In this document: positions 1-6,443 of the stretch, piece after piece | How the letters are laid out: the number at the start of each line of letters is the position of its first letter | How positions within the stretch are numbered: the first letter of the stretch is position 1 | IMG/VR virus record: IMGVR_UViG_2531839666_000013 | Span: 1 to 6,443 of that record | Reading direction: 5' to 3' (one strand) | DNA length: 6,443 nucleotides | Origin: a virus | Lineage: Duplodnaviria > Heunggongvirae > Uroviricota > Caudoviricetes | The notes under the pieces: model-generated | Told to the model about the DNA's origin: nothing | Seen by the model: only the letters and a program-made list of their open reading frames with translations | The model's database searches: none | Program-made: the position numbers and the translations under genes

Positions 1-697
1 CGGCGGGCACTTCTGCCGGTATTATCCGGGAAGGTACGGTTAATCAGCCTGTCACGGCGAAGACCATCCCCCTTGAACAGAAACACCCTGTTGCCCAGTC
101 CGTCACTCCGGCAACGACGCCAGAAACGATAGGCGTTATCTGTCACCCCGGCTTCCCCTCCCGTATCCACAGCCATGGCCATCAGACGCATGCGCACATC
201 CGGATCAGAAGCCAGCGGCCATGTTTTATGGAACACATCCGTCAGCAACAAATCCCAGTCCTCCGGATATGCTGCCGGATCAACCGGCAGACTTTCACCG
301 TTGGGACTGCAGCGTAGTGAATGCCGGATGTTGTAGCGATCAACAATCCAGCGTTCCCCCTGCTCTCCGTATCCGGTGATCTGCACAACAAAACGGCGAT
401 TTTTACCGCCCTGAACGTCAACCGTTGCCTCAATAAAACGCACACCATCCGGCACAGATCTCCGGGGAAACGGCTCGGCACGCTGTTCAAGCAGTTCACT
501 TTTACGCTGTTCCGTGGCTGAACGGGGCAGATAGGGCCGCCCGATATCGGTGTTCACCACCGCTTTCAGGGTCTCTTCACTGCCGGTTCGCTCATACTCT
601 TCTTCTGCCGCCAGCAGCTTAAAAATCAGTTGTTCCCAGGTCTGAAACGCCGCAGCCGGCCCCTCCATCCAGAAACTTGCTATTCTGGAATTTCGGG
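1..697 (-). CDS. A: Terminase large subunit (lambda gpA family), C-terminal portion; in a different frame from the N-terminal ORF, 3' end beyond window start
   Basis: Minus-strand frame with codons ending at 678, 675 ... 3 translates without stops as ...ASFWMEGPAAAFQTWEQLIFKLLAAEEEYERTGSEETLKAVVNTDIGRPY...VDVQGGKNRRFVVQITGYGEQGERWIVDRYNI...AVDTGGEAGVTDNAYRFWRRC.... From memory this is collinear with the lambda gpA region after the CPHCG motif (SPFTTWVQIV...FVNTTLGETWE...IDSQLDRYEMRVWGWG...). It carries no Met start because it continues the 680..1669 ORF after a frame change near 695-699. Confidence 0.75.
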
Positions 698-1669
698 GGT
701 TCCGGTGATACTGCCATCCACCGCTGCCCGTTCGCCTTCCCGCAGCCAGATCCCCTGGTTATTCAGTTCACGCTTCTGTTCCGGAGCAATCAGCCCGCGA
801 CAATGCGGACACATCAGACGGGCCGCCTGCCCGGCAGCCACAAAATCAGGGTTATTCCGGTAACCGGTCATGTTATCCATCACCGGCTGAAAATATTCCC
901 CGCAGTGCGGACACGGCCAGTACCACCGGCGGCGGTCTCCCCTGTTATACAGTGACAGGATCCCCGTTGTTGGCGGTGCCTCATGTGCGCCACCACAACG
1001 CCATTTGGTGTCAGTGATATCCCGCCCCGGTGAACTCTCAACCAGGGTCATCCCCGAAGACATAAAGGTGGTGGTACGCTTTGATGCCAGGGTGAAGGCA
1101 TCCCCTTCCCCGTCCACGTTTTCAGGGAAACGGTCATAATCCGTCAGCGCCACACGACGGTAATCCGAAGAGGAAAATACGGTGATCGACGGCCAGCCAA
1201 TTTTCAGGAATGAGCCGTCAAGAAACATTTTGTCGTGGACGTTGTTGTCATTACGGGAGGGGCTGAGGCGTTTGCAGACCTCCGGGCTGTGGCGAAACGT
1301 CCTGGAAAGACGCGTTCTGGAATGCTCACGCGCCTTCGTCTCGGTCATCTGCACCACCAGCATGTCCGCCGGATCACAGATGATGCCGTACACAATCCAG
1401 CCATCAATCAGCCCTTCGGTTTTCCCGGTTCGCGCAGGTCCGACAAACACCACCGCGTCATATTCACGGGCTGATAATGTATTAATGGGGTCTATCATAT
1501 AGGGCGTCAGCGATGACTCCCACGGACCGGAAGTATTGGCTCCCCGTGGTACCCGCATATAACGCCTGATGGCTTCCGCTACTGGTAACCGGCCAGGTGG
1601 GCGAAACAGCGAGGCCACTTCGCGCCAGATATCGGATGCGCGGCTATGGCTCTCGTTCACCTGATTCAC
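680..1669 (-). CDS. A: Terminase large subunit (lambda gpA family), N-terminal ATPase portion; ends at a premature TAG caused by an apparent 1-nt deletion
   Basis: 329-aa ORF with a P-loop (VVFVGPARTGKTEGL) and the gpA-like motifs SLFRPPG and WYWPCPHCGEYF...LMCPHCRGLI...GIWLREGE, matching lambda gpA SLFRPEP and FHVACPHCGEEQY...GIWTRDG. GTG start at 1669 with GAGG upstream, overlapping the stop of the upstream small-subunit gene. Only about half the expected gpA length before the stop at 680-682. Confidence 0.88.
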   Translation of the reverse strand: MNQVNESHSRASDIWREVASLFRPPGRLPVAEAIRRYMRVPRGANTSGPWESSLTPYMIDPINTLSAREYDAVVFVGPARTGKTEGLIDGWIVYGIICDPADMLVVQMTETKAREHSRTRLSRTFRHSPEVCKRLSPSRNDNNVHDKMFLDGSFLKIGWPSITVFSSSDYRRVALTDYDRFPENVDGEGDAFTLASKRTTTFMSSGMTLVESSPGRDITDTKWRCGGAHEAPPTTGILSLYNRGDRRRWYWPCPHCGEYFQPVMDNMTGYRNNPDFVAAGQAARLMCPHCRGLIAPEQKRELNNQGIWLREGERAAVDGSITGTPEIPE

Positions 1670-2142
1670 ATATCGGCCTCATCACAACAGTCAATGACTG
1701 CCTTTTCCAGTGTGTCGCGGATCTCATCAACCACAATCTGTACTTCATTCAGTTGTGATGCAGTCCACCCCCTGTCCCTCTCCAGCCGGTCAGGCCAGGT
1801 TTCCAGTACCTGAACTATCGCTTTCACCACGACAGAAAAGGACCGCCTGACATCACTGACTGGCACAAGCTGAACAGTTTCATGCTGAAATTTAAGACGC
1901 TCGCGCTCGGACTGATACCATGCCTTACGAGCGTGAGGATCCATATCCTCATCTTCGGAAGATGGTGGTTTTTCCAGCAACGAAGTTATCAAATCCGTCA
2001 GGAGATACAGTTTTTTCTTTTCATTACTGCCTGGTGCAAGAGGAACATCCGCCATTCTGGCGGCAACAGTCTGCCGGTGCAGACCTGAAAGGGCTGCCAG
2101 TTGATTAATATTTAACTTCATATTTTTCAGCTCGCCGTCCAT
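1666..2142 (-). CDS. nu1: Terminase small subunit (lambda Nu1-like, N-terminal HTH DNA-binding domain)
   Basis: 158-aa ORF; N-terminus MKLNINQLAALSGLHRQTVAARMADVPLAPG resembles lambda Nu1 MEVNKKQLADIFGASIRTIQNWQEQGMPVLRG. Sits immediately upstream of and overlapping the large-subunit start (ATGTGA / GTG). GGAGGG lies 6 nt upstream of the ATG at 2142; an alternative start is ATG 2121 (MKLNIN). Confidence 0.85.
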   Translation of the reverse strand: MDGELKNMKLNINQLAALSGLHRQTVAARMADVPLAPGSNEKKKLYLLTDLITSLLEKPPSSEDEDMDPHARKAWYQSERERLKFQHETVQLVPVSDVRRSFSVVVKAIVQVLETWPDRLERDRGWTASQLNEVQIVVDEIRDTLEKAVIDCCDEADM

Positions 2143-2319
2143 TTACATCCCTCCACATAAACCGCAGAACAGAAGTGACTCTGTTTTTTTGTAAAGAAAT
2201 GCCGCCATATAAAGATGTCGAACAAAAAACAACCACAATCATCATCTTTTTAATACTAACAGCATTAAAAACAACAAGTTACCATCATGATGATGATGAC
2301 GATAAAATCACAAAAATGC

Positions 2320-2350
2320 GCCTTTTTCCGCGCCGCCCGCCCCGTGTTCA
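2320..2350 (-). other. Candidate cos site (cosN-like GC-rich element) with an AT-rich cosB-like region between it and nu1
   Basis: Minus-strand ACGGGGCGGGCGGCGCGG (plus 2328..2344 is ccgcgccgcccgccccg) resembles the lambda cosN region ACG|GGGCGGCGACCT|CGCGGG and lies about 190 nt upstream of the nu1 start, the same spacing as in lambda. The intervening 2143..2327 is AT-rich with repeated GATGATGA/TCATCATC blocks and GTTGTTTTT copies. Exact nick positions cannot be derived from sequence alone. Confidence 0.35.
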
Positions 2351-2601
2351 GGCCCACCCCACCAGGAGGACCCGCAAAATGATAATGGTTATCATTTGCA
2401 ATGTAGTCCGGTTTCTTCCACCATCGCACCGGACCAGCGACCATGAGGGGACAACGCCGCGCTCCGTTAACGCGGTAAACCCCGGTGTGTATCGTTTTTG
2501 ATTATCCCCGCACACTCGCGCAGAGGAGTCTCCCTGTCGGGCTGCGGTCTCTGTTAATACGGGAATACGGCGACAATACCGCGCATGGATAATAAGGTCG
2601 C

Positions 2602-2826
2602 TCAACACACTGGCTGTAATGCAGCGGATACCATGCGGCATTTAGCGGCATTCATCGTACACTCAACGGTTAGCTCTTCATTCGTGGCATTCACCTGAAA
2701 GGTCCGGGAGTGTAATTGCGTACATTTACCACTGAACGAACCTTCAACAAGAACACGACCACGCTGCAAAATACGGAACGGAATTGTTCCCTGAAAAGGT
2801 TCTACGGTTACCAGTAATTTCTTCAT
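2602..2826 (-). CDS. Hypothetical small protein (74 aa) between Rz and cos
   Basis: ATG at 2826 with GGAG 6 nt upstream, starting 24 nt after the Rz stop; MKKLLVTVEPFQGTIPFRILQRGRVLVEGSF.... The ORF track extends it to a TTG at 2844 (80 aa). No recognisable family, signal peptide or lipobox. Confidence 0.4.
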   Translation of the reverse strand: MKKLLVTVEPFQGTIPFRILQRGRVLVEGSFSGKCTQLHSRTFQVNATNEELTVECTMNAAKCRMVSAALQPVC

Positions 2827-2849
2827 GCATTCTCCGGATAACAAAAATA

Positions 2850-3323
2850 CTAGTTAATACACTGAGTGCGGATATATTCCTTCGCCCCTTCCAGCTGCTT
2901 CTGCATTGTCATCAACCGTTCTCTGAGGATGAAATAATCCCGTTCAGCGGTGTCTGCCAGTCGGGGGCCGGTTGCATTATCCACGCCGGAGGTGCCGGTG
3001 GCTTCACGCACTGTACCGGGGCAGGTGGCGTTGATCCGCAGGCGCTTACGACCAGCGGCAACATCAGCACGCAGAGTTTCATTTTCAGCTCTCGCATCGG
3101 CTAATTCCCTCGAGTATTTTGCATCGAGCGCAGCAACATCGCGCTGGCGCACCTGCATATCAGTAATGGTTGCGTTTGCCAGCTCCAGCTCTCTGGCTTT
3201 TTTATCGCGCTGCGCTTTGTAGGTGATGGCGTTATCGCGGTAATGATTCAGCCCCAGACTAAGCACACCACAGACCACCAGCAGAATAACGGTAAACGCG
3301 GAAAGCATTCGGTTTATGCTCAC
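2850..3323 (-). CDS. Rz: Rz i-spanin (inner-membrane spanin subunit)
   Basis: 157-aa product is near-collinear with lambda Rz: N-terminal TM segment then [58 protein letters not shown]...[29 protein letters not shown] start at 3323 overlaps the TGA of the upstream small gene. Confidence 0.92.
2912..3097 (-). CDS. Rz1: Rz1 o-spanin lipoprotein, embedded in the +1 frame of Rz
   Basis: 61-aa product [61 protein letters not shown] closely matches lambda Rz1 (MLKLKMMLCV...[27 protein letters not shown]). Lipobox LVVSAC, proline-rich, wholly inside Rz. Confidence 0.88.
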
Positions 3324-3451
3324 CCCAGCAGCCCCGACGAAGATAACATCATCCAGCCCATGGAAAGAAAAAGAGCAACCAGCATTAGTGAAAATGAAAT
3401 GCCGACGATTACACAGAGGATCTTCGCCAGCATTGTGAGTTTGTCTGACAT
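3320..3451 (-). CDS. Small hydrophobic membrane peptide (43 aa), unknown function
   Basis: ATG at 3451 preceded by a strong SD AGGGAGGA 7 nt upstream; product [43 protein letters not shown] is a single predicted TM helix. Its TGA stop overlaps the Rz GTG start (GTGA). Below the ORF-track size cut-off as an ATG-initiated ORF; the track shows a longer alternative-start version (3320..3541). Confidence 0.45.
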
Positions 3452-3465
3452 GTTTAATCCTCCCT

Positions 3466-3648
3466 TCACGATTTCAACGCAATGACCAGTTTTGCCAGCC
3501 CATACAGCATCGGAGACACAGCGATACCGACCGCCACCCACTTAATAGCAAAAGCCAGTGCTCTGCTGATGTCATCAGTTACTGGCGCTTTCAGTTCAAG
3601 GCCGTTTTTCATAGTCAACCTCAACAGAATTCGTTTATACTTTTCCAT
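3466..3648 (-). CDS. Small membrane protein (60 aa, C-terminal TM helix), unknown function
   Basis: ATG at 3648 ([60 protein letters not shown]) with AGGGAG 5 nt upstream. The track ORF starts further up at a GTG (3681) inside the terminator stem, which is less plausible. Followed 14 nt later by the next small gene. Confidence 0.45.
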
Positions 3649-3681
3649 GTTCTCCCTTGCCTTATCCAAGGTCAGAAACAC

Positions 3682-3720
3682 AAAACCCCGCTTGCTGCCA
3701 ACAAACGGGGTTTTTACTTT
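3682..3720. terminator. Rho-independent terminator-like hairpin between the endolysin and the small membrane-peptide genes (possibly bidirectional)
   Basis: Plus strand aaaaccccg-[15 nt loop]-cggggttttt followed by acttttatt: a 9-bp stem with a CCCCG/CGGGG core flanked by an A-run on one side and a T-run on the other. Confidence 0.4.
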
Positions 3721-3804
3721 TATTCACTTAGGTTTTGCCAGTTCGCAGGATTTCGTGTTATCCACCCGCGTTGGCCAACGTCATTTTTCAGCAAAATATT
3801 CTGC

Positions 3805-4338
3805 TTATCTGTCGATTCCCCAGCACGCCAGCGCACTCTCCTGGTCGCGACGGGATACCTGACCGTAGCAATTATTTGAGCGGATACGGCAGTCTCTGCC
3901 ACCGTCCTTAATCCACCAGCGAATCGCTTCACACGCTCCCCTGCGATCGCCTGCATTAATTCGTTTATAAAACGTCGACGGGAAACACTTACCGGGGCCA
4001 ATGTTATACGGGCAGAATGACGCAATACCCGCTTTCTGGGGTTCAGTCAGTGGCACTTTGATGTTTTTCTCCACCCATGCCAGCGCCTTATCACGCTCAA
4101 TGGCGTTAACCCGGTCGCATTTCCCCTTCGACAGCTTCATGCCAGGAATCACAGGCTTACCATCCACCCGGGTGGCTCCACGGCAGATGGTCCAGATACC
4201 CGCACCATCACGGTATGCCGTGGTGTGGTTACCTTCTTTTTCATCCAGAAACTGGTCGAGGATTTCAGGCGCAGAAGCCCCTGCGGCAATCAGCGCCAGA
4301 ACAGCAGCTGACAGGCCGTATTTGATTTTTGCGTTCAT
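3805..4338 (-). CDS. R: SAR endolysin (phage lysozyme, glycoside hydrolase family 24, R21-like)
   Basis: 177-aa product with an N-terminal Gly/Ala-rich signal-anchor-release segment (YGLSAAVLALIAAGASA) followed by EGNHTTAYRDGAGIWTICRG, which matches the E-x8-D-x5-T catalytic arrangement of phage 21 R ([20 protein letters not shown]). Pairs functionally with the pinholin upstream. Confidence 0.92.
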   Translation of the reverse strand: MNAKIKYGLSAAVLALIAAGASAPEILDQFLDEKEGNHTTAYRDGAGIWTICRGATRVDGKPVIPGMKLSKGKCDRVNAIERDKALAWVEKNIKVPLTEPQKAGIASFCPYNIGPGKCFPSTFYKRINAGDRRGACEAIRWWIKDGGRDCRIRSNNCYGQVSRRDQESALACWGIDR

Positions 4339-4374
4339 GGATATATTAAATATTCAGCCGCTGTCCCTGGCCCA

Positions 4375-4563
4375 CTAAATACGCACTTTAAGATAAGTCA
4401 GCCCCGGCTGGATCCAGTTATCAGGCTCAGTCTTAAAGGGTGGAGTATTGAAATCACGAAGAACGGTCTCCCGCACAACTGCATCCTTGTCAGCACCACT
4501 GGCCAGCGCTTCAATCTCAGCAGCTACCTGAAGATATCCCATGCAACGACCAATACGCTTCAT
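4375..4563 (-). CDS. Hypothetical protein (62 aa), second gene of a two-gene cargo module
   Basis: ATG at 4563-4561 overlaps the TGA of the upstream 265-aa gene (ATGA), with AGGGG 5 nt upstream; product [62 protein letters not shown]. No family recognised. Confidence 0.5.
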   Translation of the reverse strand: MKRIGRCMGYLQVAAEIEALASGADKDAVVRETVLRDFNTPPFKTEPDNWIQPGLTYLKVRI

Positions 4564-5360
4564 CAGCCCCTGTTTTTATTGTTCTTCAGGTAATCAATGG
4601 CAAATTCAATGAGCATCTCACAGTGCTGGTGCGATGGCGGTGTTACTTTTCCATTTTCTGATATGGTGATTTTCCCGTCATCACCGGATACAACAAAGGA
4701 TGGCCGGTTACACTCCCGTTCCTGGTTTTTGTCCGACACAGGCACAGTAAAATCACTTTCATGCCCGTTTTTACGACAGTCCTCGCCACGTACCGCAGCA
4801 AATACCGACAAGGCATACTCCTTTGCTCTCGCTTCATAGTCGCTGAATGTTGTTTTCGGATCGTAGTCTTCCCTGTACATAACCGACAGAACTTCCTCAT
4901 GATCAATATGAACACTGACCACGCTGCCTATTCTTTTGGTCAGCACAAGACGAGAATCTTCCCCGACTTTCACTCCTGGTGTCACACGTGCCGGAAGCTC
5001 CACATTAACCATCGCGCTCTGCACATCATCAGGCGCATTTTTTACCGGTTCGTTGACCTTTTCACGCCCCGGGTAAGTGGCGATTTTTTCCGGCATTGTC
5101 CATGAAGAAATATTCTGAAAGCCATATCGCGCAGTCCCTTCGCGTAATCCGAGAGCCGCATCCATGAAAAACTGCTTCGCCTGTTTTTTCGCCTCAGCTT
5201 CGTAAAACTCCAGCGTGGCACCTTCAGTACGGTCAAGACTAATCGCCACATATGGCGACAACAACGACGGCTGCCCGGCAATTACCAGTGCCACAGTAAC
5301 AGTTATCTTATCCGGGTAATGATTTATCCCTTTTACAACCAGTTCATATTTTTTATTCAT
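4563..5360 (-). CDS. Hypothetical protein (265 aa), cargo gene between pinholin and endolysin
   Basis: ATG at 5360 ([18 protein letters not shown]...) preceded by GGGGAG. Long stop-free frame to TGA at 4563-4565 with protein-like composition. In the ORF track it appears fused in frame to the holin as a 355-aa ORF (4563..5630), but the holin part is clearly a separate gene. One hydrophobic stretch ([22 protein letters not shown]) near the N-terminus; no motif I can assign. Confidence 0.7.
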
Positions 5361-5364
5361 CGCT

Positions 5365-5578
5365 TTACTCTCCCCGGGCGCCTTACGACGGTCTTCTTTA
5401 ATCTTGAAATACAGGTTCGTCAGGTACGTCAGCAGACCAAACAGCAGACTCCCCAGCACGCCTATTGCCGCCCACTGAGACGGGGAAACCCTGTCCAGCA
5501 ACTGCAGGAACCAGTAGCCCGTTCCACCGCTGACGTGGTGTATGACACACCTGTTGTGAATTTTTCCATCTGGTACAT
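5365..5578 (-). pseudogene. S: Class II pinholin (phage 21 S21-like) with dual-start motif; reading frame broken twice by apparent 1-nt deletions
   Basis: Frame B from ATG 5578 gives [17 protein letters not shown] (S21: MKSMDKISTGIAYGTSA); frame A then gives [50 protein letters not shown] (S21: [47 protein letters not shown]). Restoring one base near 5372-5381 recreates ...GE-TAA at 5365-5367, as in S21. It may equally be intact in reality if the deletions are sequencing errors. Confidence 0.8.
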
Positions 5579-5652
5579 ACCCGTCTCCGCAATCCGGAAG
5601 CTCACAACAATATAAAGACCACCGGCACACACCGATGGTCCCTTGCGCATGC

Positions 5653-6268: not shown

Positions 6269-6443
6269 TCATGCCGCGGCATCCGCGTTGTTCACTTCCA
6301 CCTTCACACTGTCAATCAGCAACGTATATGTCGCCGCCTTTGATATGTCTGTCAGTTGCAGTTTGTCCGCCGCCCCTGATGCCGGAGATTTCACCAGTGT
6401 GAACGGTGTACCCCGTTCTCATCCAGTACCGGCGTCACCTGAA
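6269..6443 (-). CDS. 3' end of an unidentified upstream gene (partial), frame broken by an apparent 1-nt deletion in a G-run
   Basis: Minus frame c reads ...QVTPVLDENGVHRSHW-stop; the adjacent frame b continues as TPFTLVKSPASGAADKLQLTDISKAATYTLLIDSVKVEVNNADAAA to a stop at 6269-6271. Restoring one G in the GGGG run (plus cccc 6411..6414) joins them into one frame. Identity unknown; its position upstream of the holin would fit a late-gene regulator such as Q, but I cannot confirm that from the sequence. Confidence 0.45.

What the first reader, a model, noticed from the sequence alone, without database searches (positions are those of the whole stretch)
4563..5630. The 355-aa ORF is a chimera of the pinholin and the downstream cargo gene
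The track ORF begins [32 protein letters not shown] (out-of-frame translation of the holin start region), then reads the pinholin TM2 and C-terminus, then runs with no stop into MNKKYEL.... The S21-like terminus RKAARGE-stop is converted to RKAPGESKA by one missing base, and the real cargo gene has its own SD and ATG at 5360. Annotating this as one 355-aa membrane protein would be wrong, although as written the sequence would express the cargo both alone and as a holin fusion.
Basis: seen in the sequence. Interest (0 to 1): 0.4.

Follow-up and report, generated by a model that had tools for sequence, protein, structure and literature searches.

The report
Frameshift-made holin–cargo chimeric ORF
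The 355-codon reading frame is not a gene but a stitched-together artefact: single missing bases in short base runs break a phage lysis gene (pinholin) and its neighbour and weld pieces of them into one frame, most likely through sequencing or assembly errors.

Summary
On the minus strand, 5630..4563 is a 355-aa ORF. It contains 5'-UTR and out-of-frame holin codons 1-18, then in-frame holin codons 19-67 (Pfam PF04971, phage 21 S family), then the first 265 codons of the next gene (DUF1327/YdfR family, ATG 5360).

Against the nearest relative (L017, 99.75 % over all 6443 nt), the window differs by 9 substitutions and 7 gaps. Every gap is a 1-nt deletion in the window inside a base run: 6416-17, 5587-88, 5580-82, 5524-25, 5379, 4573-77 and 695-99. 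None of them occurs in any of the 6-20 relatives that cover each site.

- Two deletions break the holin.
- One also truncates the cargo gene. The real product is 328 aa and ends at 4375, so the "62-aa ORF" 4563-4375 is its tail.
- One breaks terL and one breaks the esterase.

Window 1-5522 has 0 substitutions against L017 but 3 frameshifts. No holin-cargo fusion appeared in the protein search, and the deleted junction is absent from three DNA collections.

Best reading: homopolymer-type sequence errors in an ordinary Stx-phage-like lysis cassette (pinholin, YdfR-family gene, SAR endolysin, Rz/Rz1). Real pseudogenisation is the minor rival. Interest is low.

The parts
4563..5630 (-). The mechanical 355-aa ORF (artefact). 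It reads 5'-UTR in the native holin frame, then out-of-frame SD and holin codons 1-18, then holin codons 19-67, then the junction 'PGESKA', then cargo codons 1-265.
5365..5578 (-). Phage-21-type class II holin (pinholin) gene, 71 codons when repaired. ATG at 5578, second Met at 5569, native TAA at 5367-5365. Broken by 1-nt deletions at 5524-5525 and 5379, and it carries a private A>T change at 5560 (I7F). As written, translation from ATG 5578 gives a 38-aa peptide that ends at 5462.
5580..5588 (-). Holin SD region with two private 1-nt deletions. GCGGGAGACGGGGTATG in all 20 relatives reads GCGGAGACGGGTATG here. The runs are CC at 5587-88 and CCC at 5580-82 on the + strand.
5524..5525 (-). G-run shortened by 1 nt (GGG or GGGG in relatives, GG here) at holin codon 18/19. 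This is the first frameshift inside the holin.
5379..5379 (-). GG>G deletion in holin codon 68. It turns RKAARGE-stop into [13 protein letters not shown] and puts the holin frame in phase with the cargo ATG.
   Evidence: the deleted junction has 0 hits and the intact junction 5 hits in public contigs
4375..5360 (-). The real 'cargo' gene, a YdfR-family protein with an N-terminal DUF1327 domain. It is 328 aa once the A-run is restored (99 % identical to P0001). SD GGGGAGAG, ATG at 5360, stop TAG at 4377-4375.
4573..4577 (-). A6>A5 (T5 on the + strand) deletion that truncates the cargo gene after codon about 264 and creates the ORF's stop at 4565-4563.
   Evidence: the A5 form has 0 hits and the A6 form 5 hits in viral contigs
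4375..4563 (-). A 62-aa ORF that is really the C-terminal tail (aa 267-328) of the cargo gene.
   Evidence: phrog_26186
3805..4338 (-). Intact endolysin, 177 aa, PF00959. It has an N-terminal hydrophobic Ala/Gly-rich stretch (aa 9-23), consistent with a SAR-type signal.
2850..3323 (-). Rz spanin gene (PF03245), with an embedded 61-aa ORF at 2912-3097 in the Rz1 position. Both are intact.
   Evidence: a PF06085 Rz1 gene is called at the same place in L017
1..1669 (-). Terminase large subunit. It is 99 % identical to relatives on both sides of a C6>C5 deletion (G5 at +695-699) that shifts the frame at codon about 324.
6416..6417 (-). AAA>AA deletion in the 3' end of the SASA/DUF6645 esterase gene.

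Best explanation
The window is the late (lysis-to-packaging) region of an ordinary Stx-phage-like lambdoid prophage of E. coli, read on the minus strand. The gene order is esterase, DUF1378, DUF826, phage-21-type pinholin (71 aa), a 328-aa YdfR/DUF1327-family gene, SAR-type endolysin, Rz/Rz1, terS and terL.

The sequence as given has lost one base from each of seven short base runs. Three losses just before and inside the holin (total 3 nt) open a frame from an upstream GTG and regain the holin frame at codon 19. A fourth loss, at holin codon 68, removes the stop from phase and joins the frame to the next gene. A fifth loss, in an A6 run, ends that gene early. The result is a 355-aa ORF with no biological counterpart.

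The deletions are most likely base-calling or assembly errors of the homopolymer-undercall type, as seen in long-read or pyrosequencing-type data. They may have stayed uncorrected because these prophage modules are repeated within STEC genomes. That last step is inferred. In the real DNA the three genes are then separate and intact.
For: Shown here:
- The nearest relative, L017, aligns to all 6443 nt at 99.75 %, with 9 mismatches and 7 gaps. All 7 gaps are 1-nt deletions in the window inside runs. L015 shows the same 7 gaps, and L002/L003/L004 show them wherever they overlap.
- None of the 7 deletions is shared by any of the 6-20 related loci covering each site. Six of the 9 substitutions are shared polymorphisms, so the private changes are 7 deletions against 3 substitutions.
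- Window 1-5522 has 0 substitutions against L017 but 3 frame-breaking deletions, in the holin, the cargo gene and terL.
- Proteins on both sides of each break remain 99-100 % identical to relatives: terL 99.4 % and 99.1 %, holin aa 19-67 100 %.
- Re-inserting the 7 bases restores a 71-aa holin, a 328-aa cargo gene and a continuous terL.
- All 8 contigs that encode the identical endolysin carry a separate 71-aa holin. Seven of them have the 328-aa gene called 4 nt downstream.
- No hit in the 5.8-billion-protein search spans both holin and cargo; the maximum query coverage is 75 %.
- The deleted junction has 0 hits in genome, viral and metagenome contigs, while the intact junction has 5 in viral contigs. 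The A5 form has 0 hits and the A6 form 5.
- The same kind of one-base holin-to-next-gene fusion is on record from another assembly: P0060, 'RKAARESKLMSRK'.

Background: long-read assemblies are known to carry frameshifting errors that pseudogenise genes (abstract of PMC12007338).
Against: - I could not identify the source record or its sequencing platform, and there are no reads or quality values. Error versus true mutation is therefore an inference from pattern.
- Real replication slippage also favours base runs.
- Four of the seven deletions cluster within 210 nt around the holin (about 0.2 expected if they were spread evenly). Selection to inactivate a lysis gene in a resident prophage could produce such a cluster. 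So could a locally poorly polished repeat.
- Two of the shortened runs are only 2-3 nt long, shorter than classic homopolymer errors.
Confidence: 0.8

Rival explanations
1. The deletions are real. The prophage is defective: slippage mutations have inactivated its pinholin, its terminase and the YdfR-family gene. The 355-aa ORF is then a pseudogene read-through with no function.
For: - Prophage lysis and packaging genes are commonly inactivated in resident prophages (general knowledge).
- Slippage in base runs is the usual mutational route to 1-nt indels.
- The deletions cluster at the holin.
- Similar broken fusions exist in other assemblies (P0060).
Against: - The private indel-to-substitution ratio is 7:3, and 3:0 over 5.5 kb. 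This is far from the substitution-dominated pattern of real divergence (my background knowledge, not measured here).
- All 7 events are deletions.
- Several hits fall in one already dead gene.
- No other decay is visible: no nonsense substitutions, no larger deletions, no IS elements. Flanking proteins remain 99-100 % identical.
- None of the deletions appears in any relative or public contig searched.
Confidence: 0.17
2. The fusion is functional. A membrane-anchored holin-TMD2/DUF1327 protein is made from GTG 5630 or an internal start, as a new way of tethering the cargo protein to the membrane while lysis is disabled.
For: - The ORF is open and keeps the strongly hydrophobic TMD2 (aa 54-68 of the ORF).
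- A weak AAGGGA motif lies 7 nt upstream of GTG 5630.
Against: - No homologous fusion appears among the hits of the 5.8-billion-protein search.
- The first 34 residues are UTR or out-of-frame sequence.
- The cargo part is itself truncated by another frameshift.
- The normal holin start leads to a 38-aa dead end.
- The same error signature hits unrelated genes, terL and the esterase.
Confidence: 0.02
3. The A-run at 4573-4577 is a programmed or phase-variable slippage site that yields 265-aa and 328-aa forms of the cargo protein.
For: PHROGs holds a 62-aa family (phrog_26186) equal to the tail, and a 122-aa family that ends at aa 265 (phrog_36381). The same split has therefore been annotated in other phage records.
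Against: - The A5 form has 0 hits in IMG/VR even with degenerate flanks, against 5 for A6.
- All 17 relatives covering the site have A6.
- The split annotations can equally come from the same sequencing error at an A6 run.
- This was not tested further.
Confidence: 0.01

Closest known systems
Phage 21 S21 pinholin / R21 SAR-endolysin lysis cassette (Pfam PF04971 'Bacteriophage P21 holin S'; annotated 'class II holin family protein' in E. coli prophages)
   Same: - The repaired 71-aa product matches PF04971 over profile positions 1-63 of 64 (109.8 bits).
- It has two Met starts (M1 and M4), a weakly hydrophobic first segment and a strongly hydrophobic second segment, and the basic tail RRKAARGE.
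- It sits upstream of a lysozyme with an N-terminal hydrophobic SAR-like stretch and of Rz/Rz1.
   Different: - As written, the gene is broken twice and cannot make the holin.
- The start reads MYQM and lacks the Lys of phage 21's MKSM (the phage 21 sequence is recalled from memory and was not aligned here).
- An extra 328-aa gene sits between holin and endolysin.
YdfR (Qin prophage of E. coli K-12), DUF1327 / PF07041 family; PHROG 1085
   Same: - The cargo N-terminus (aa 1-75) matches PF07041 (112.7 bits).
- It occupies the position directly downstream of the class II holin, where many relatives in the DNA searches annotate a YdfR-family protein next to the holin and lysozyme.
- The full length matches phrog_1085.
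   Different: - It is 328 aa, against 103 aa for K-12 YdfR.
- It has a variable middle and a conserved C-terminal module of about 110 aa that also occurs without DUF1327 (P0067).
- Its function is unknown. K-12 YdfR aa 1-72 was reported to bind the RNase E catalytic domain and possibly RNA (PMC13232886). That was not tested for this protein.
Gene-fusing frameshift errors in error-prone assemblies (for example P0060, a 250-aa holin-endolysin 'fusion')
   Same: In both cases a one-base loss in the G-rich 3' end of the same holin gene removes the stop from phase and joins the holin to the next ORF.
   Different: In P0060 the partner is the endolysin, because no cargo gene intervenes. The cause there is likewise unverified.

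Membership tests
Phage 21 S-type class II holin (pinholin), PF04971 | Sequence match to the family profile above the curated cut-off | tested here: met
   The ORF's aa 34-84 score 88.5 bits (cut-off 26). The repaired 71-aa sequence scores 109.8 bits over profile positions 1-63 of 64. The PHROG holin families 9876 and 20 also match.
Phage 21 S-type class II holin (pinholin), PF04971 | An intact reading frame of about 68-71 codons encoding two transmembrane segments | tested here: not met
   As written, ATG 5578 gives a 38-aa product with no hydrophobic segment. The frame is intact only after two bases are restored. Relatives are all intact at 71 aa.
Phage 21 S-type class II holin (pinholin), PF04971 | Dual-start motif (two Met codons three codons apart) | tested here: met
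   ATG at 5578 and at 5569 (MYQM). Whether the longer form acts as an antiholin cannot be tested here.
Phage 21 S-type class II holin (pinholin), PF04971 | Partner endolysin with an N-terminal signal-anchor-release (SAR) domain | tested here: inconclusive
   The endolysin (4338-3805) is PF00959 with a hydrophobic Ala/Gly-rich stretch at aa 9-23 (Kyte-Doolittle 2.05). This is consistent with a SAR domain. Membrane release cannot be tested in silico here.
Phage 21 S-type class II holin (pinholin), PF04971 | Formation of small (about 2 nm) heptameric pinholes and membrane depolarisation | not testable with these tools
   This is a functional property and needs experiment.
YdfR / DUF1327 family (PF07041) | Profile match above the cut-off | tested here: met
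   112.7 bits (cut-off 25), aa 1-75 of the repaired protein and aa 91-165 of the ORF.
YdfR / DUF1327 family (PF07041) | Location next to the holin and endolysin of lambdoid prophages | tested here: met
   the gene starts 4 nt after the holin stop and lies upstream of the lysozyme in relatives.
YdfR / DUF1327 family (PF07041) | Binding to the RNase E N-terminal domain (reported for K-12 YdfR aa 1-72) | not testable with these tools
   The report is in PMC13232886. It is a lead only.
Genuine holin-cargo fusion protein | The same continuous fusion is present in independent genomes | tested here: not met
   no hit covers more than 75 % of the ORF; junction absent from three collections; 20 relatives keep the stop.

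The most novel reading that the evidence does not exclude
The seven deletions are real and recent. This prophage would then carry a disabled pinholin whose second transmembrane helix is fused to a truncated YdfR-family protein, giving a membrane-tethered DUF1327 protein expressed from the late operon. That would be a domesticated lysis cassette.
Probability: 0.03. Interest if true: 0.35.

Novelty: not a real feature. Interest (0 to 1): 0.08.

Why it matters
The main value is in annotation hygiene. Taken at face value, the window would yield a false 355-aa 'membrane protein', a false 62-aa gene, no holin and a split terminase, and it might lead someone to call the prophage lysis-defective. Recognising the run-deletion signature (7 private 1-nt deletions against 3 private substitutions) shows that every frameshift in this record should be distrusted until it is resequenced. 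The underlying biology is a standard pinholin / SAR-endolysin cassette with a YdfR-family gene inserted. That gene family is still of unknown function and is the only part of modest biological interest.

Tried and rejected
- Finding the source record. Exact-product look-ups of the 355-aa ORF, the 265-aa cargo form and the 157-aa Rz found nothing. The window is not in the INPHARED phages or the RefSeq complete E. coli genomes at more than 96 % identity over full length. The platform therefore remains unknown.
- Looking for the deleted junction and the A5 form in public contigs. Both gave 0 hits. A real, shared polymorphism is therefore not supported.
- Looking for a natural holin-cargo fusion by protein search. 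None was found.
- Predicting a function for the cargo protein by structure. The AlphaFold2 model from a 34-sequence alignment was poor (mean pLDDT 56.9, pTM 0.31). Foldseek against the PDB gave nothing at E <= 0.001. The top weak hits (E 0.02-0.1, TM < 0.15) were dsRBD proteins, which I do not treat as evidence.
- Programmed frameshifting at the A-run was considered and set aside (see rivals).
The Pfam family built on it was used instead.

Full report
**What is at the coordinates**

The mechanical ORF list contains a 355-aa ORF on the minus strand, 5630 (GTG) to 4563 (stop TGA at 4565-4563).

Reading the minus strand gives these landmarks:
- A holin-type start, ATG TAC CAG ATG (MYQM), at 5578-5567, preceded by GCGGAGACGGGT.
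- The sequence ...CGT CGT AAG GCG CCC GGG GAG AGT AAA GCG ATG AAT AAA AAA..., so the cargo ATG is at 5360-5358. The triplet TAA at 5367-5365 is out of phase.

Pfam places PF04971 'Bacteriophage P21 holin S' on ORF residues 34-84 (profile positions 12-63 of 64) and PF07041 DUF1327 on residues 91-165. The ORF really is a composite of two unrelated families.

**Context**

The window matches the late region of Stx-converting and related lambdoid prophages of E. coli. On the minus strand the order is:
- the C-terminus of a SASA/DUF6645 esterase
- DUF1378 (6118-5939)
- DUF826 (5898-5653)
- the holin
- the DUF1327 gene
- an endolysin (4338-3805)
- a small phrog_1115 gene (3681-3466)
- Rz (3323-2850), with an embedded ORF in the Rz1 position (3097-2912)
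- a 74-aa gene
- terS (2142-1666)
- terL (1669 to the window end)

This rests. In annotated relatives the holin is a separate 216-nt gene (71 aa). It is followed 4 nt later by a gene of about 990 nt, and then by the lysozyme.

**The breaks**

tblastn with the relatives' proteins shows:

| Protein | Part | Frame | Window coordinates |
|---|---|---|---|
| Holin | aa 1-18 | -2 | 5578-5525 |
| Holin | aa 19-67 | -1 | 5525-5379 |
| Cargo | aa 1-266 | -1 | 5360-4566 |
| Cargo | aa 264-329 | -3 | 4575-4378 |
| terL | aa 1-325 | -2 | 1669-695 |
| terL | aa 324-556 | -1 | 701-3 |

A look-up of the window's intact endolysin brought in contigs that carry the same prophage module. Two of them align to the entire window:
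- L017 (GCA_031799475.1) at 99.75 %: 9 mismatches and 7 gaps.
- L015 (LK999954.1) at 99.5 %: 23 mismatches and the same 7 gaps.

Every gap is a single base missing from the window inside a run:

| + strand position | Window | Relatives | Location |
|---|---|---|---|
| 6416-17 | TT | TTT | esterase |
| 5587-88 | CC | CCC | 5' of the holin ATG, in the SD |
| 5580-82 | CCC | CCCC | 5' of the holin ATG, in the SD |
| 5524-25 | CC | CCC or CCCC | holin codon 18/19 |
| 5379 | C | CC | holin codon 68 |
| 4573-77 | T5 | T6 | cargo codon about 264 |
| 695-99 | G5 | G6 | terL codon about 324 |

**How the ORF arises**

In intact relatives, the frame of the holin is open upstream as far as the DUF826 stop, and the GTG at 5630 lies in it.
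- The two SD-region deletions push the holin ATG out of that frame.
- The third deletion, at 5524-25, brings the total to 3 nt. The frame that began at GTG 5630 therefore coincides again with the holin frame from codon 19.
- The fourth deletion, at 5379, shifts RKAARGE-stop to RKAPGESKA and lands in phase with the cargo ATG.
- The fifth deletion, in the A-run, produces ...YLKNNKNRG-stop in place of ...[17 protein letters not shown]....

The ORF therefore holds only 265 of the cargo gene's 328 codons. The '62-aa ORF' 4563-4375 is the rest of the same gene. Re-inserting the seven bases gives a 71-aa holin, a 328-aa cargo protein and an uninterrupted terL. The repaired cargo protein is 99 % identical to P0001, a 328-aa 'DUF1327 domain-containing protein' of E. 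coli.

**Error or mutation**

None of the seven deletions occurs in any of the 6-20 related loci that cover each site. Six of the nine substitutions against L017 are polymorphisms shared with other loci. The changes private to the window are therefore 7 deletions and 3 substitutions (6090, 5797, 5560). One of those substitutions, 5560, sits at the edge of an A-run (A6T becomes A5TT).

From position 1 to 5522 the window has no substitution at all against L017, yet it has three frame-breaking deletions in three conserved genes. The proteins flanking each break remain 99-100 % identical to relatives.

The deleted holin/cargo junction is absent from the genome, viral and metagenome contig collections, whereas the intact form is found five times in IMG/VR. 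The same holds for the A5 and A6 forms.

Taken together, the signs are: an excess of one-directional indels in base runs over substitutions, hits in essential genes of an otherwise pristine module, and uniqueness to this one sequence. This is the signature of base-calling or assembly error (the general phenomenon is described in PMC12007338). Real decay would be expected to be dominated by substitutions, which is background knowledge and was not measured here.

I could not find the source record, so this remains an inference, which I rate at about 0.8. The main rival is real slippage mutations in a defective prophage (about 0.17). Its best support is that four deletions cluster within 210 nt around the holin. 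A repeat that polishing could not resolve would explain that cluster equally well, since related genomes carry up to 15 copies of this module.

**Is there a real fusion anywhere?**

No hit in the search of 5.8 billion protein clusters covers more than the cargo part (75 %) of the ORF. All eight contigs with the identical endolysin have a separate 71-aa holin.

The search did return other odd fusions. One example is P0060, a holin-endolysin fusion reading 'RKAARESKLMSRK'. It comes from loss of one G in the same G-run, which shows that this spot is prone to the same accident.

As written, the window would not obviously express a fusion. Initiation at the holin's own SD and ATG ends after 38 codons ([38 protein letters not shown]-stop). 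The fusion frame is reachable only from GTG 5630, TTG 5501 or GTG 5459.

**What the real genes are**

The repaired holin has the features of the phage 21 class II (pinholin) family:
- a full-length PF04971 match
- two starts three codons apart
- a weakly hydrophobic first segment and a strongly hydrophobic second segment
- a basic C-terminus

The endolysin has an N-terminal Ala/Gly-rich hydrophobic stretch, consistent with a SAR signal.

The cargo gene belongs to the YdfR/DUF1327 family (PHROG 1085, unknown function). It has three parts:
- a DUF1327 domain at aa 1-75
- a variable middle
- a conserved C-terminal module of about 110 aa, which also occurs without DUF1327

A 2026 study reports that aa 1-72 of K-12 YdfR bind the RNase E catalytic domain and that the protein may bind RNA (PMC13232886). 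That is a lead for this protein, not a result. The structure prediction was of low confidence and the fold search was uninformative.

**Verdict**

The 355-aa ORF is an artefact of single-base deletions. It is incomplete at its 3' end for the same reason, and it is part of a window-wide pattern that points to sequence error. The underlying locus is ordinary and already known.

Noticed in passing
window 1-1669 (minus); break at +695-699: The terminase large subunit is frameshifted by a C6>C5 (G5 on the + strand) deletion at codon about 324. Both halves remain about 99 % identical to relatives.
   Followed up: yes
window 6416-6417: The 3' end of the SASA/DUF6645 esterase gene has AA where relatives have AAA. 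This is another private 1-nt deletion.
   Followed up: partly
window 4375-4563 (minus): The 62-aa ORF is the C-terminal tail of the 328-aa DUF1327 gene. PHROGs contains a 62-aa family (phrog_26186) and a family ending at aa 265 (phrog_36381). The same split at this A-run has therefore been annotated in other deposited phage genomes.
   Followed up: partly
L002 5545-6531 and L003 5545-6531 (RefSeq NZ_CP046539, NZ_CP129252): PGAP annotates only the first 225 nt of the intact 328-codon gene, as an 'incomplete DUF1327 pseudogene, missing C-terminus'. The ORF is in fact open for 328 codons in both genomes, so this looks like a mis-annotation of a modular protein.
   Followed up: partly
P0060 (250 aa), P0088 (198 aa), P0076 (213 aa): Other assemblies contain class II holin sequences fused to a lysozyme (P0060, P0088) or to the tail of a radical-SAM-like protein (P0076). 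P0060 arises from a one-base loss in the same G-run at the holin 3' end.
   Followed up: no
P0001 vs P0004, P0029, P0054, P0067; window 4375-5360: The YdfR-family genes downstream of the holin are mosaics: a conserved DUF1327 head, swappable middles, and a conserved tail of about 110 aa that also exists as a 213-aa protein without DUF1327. Function is unknown. K-12 YdfR aa 1-72 was reported to bind RNase E (PMC13232886).
   Followed up: partly
L009 (IMGVR_UViG_2617271340_000006), holin region: This IMG/VR contig has its own small private indels in and before the holin (for example ATCG--GTGTG and CACA--CAGGG). It is another error-prone copy of the same module.
   Followed up: no
window 5560: A private A>T change at the end of an A-run (GAAAAAATC becomes GAAAAATTC) changes holin Ile7 to Phe. 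All 20 relatives have Ile, so this is probably another run-length miscall.
   Followed up: partly
window 6090 and 5797: Two further private substitutions: TAC>TGC (Tyr>Cys) in DUF1378 and a synonymous CTT>CTC in DUF826. Neither is associated with a base run.
   Followed up: no
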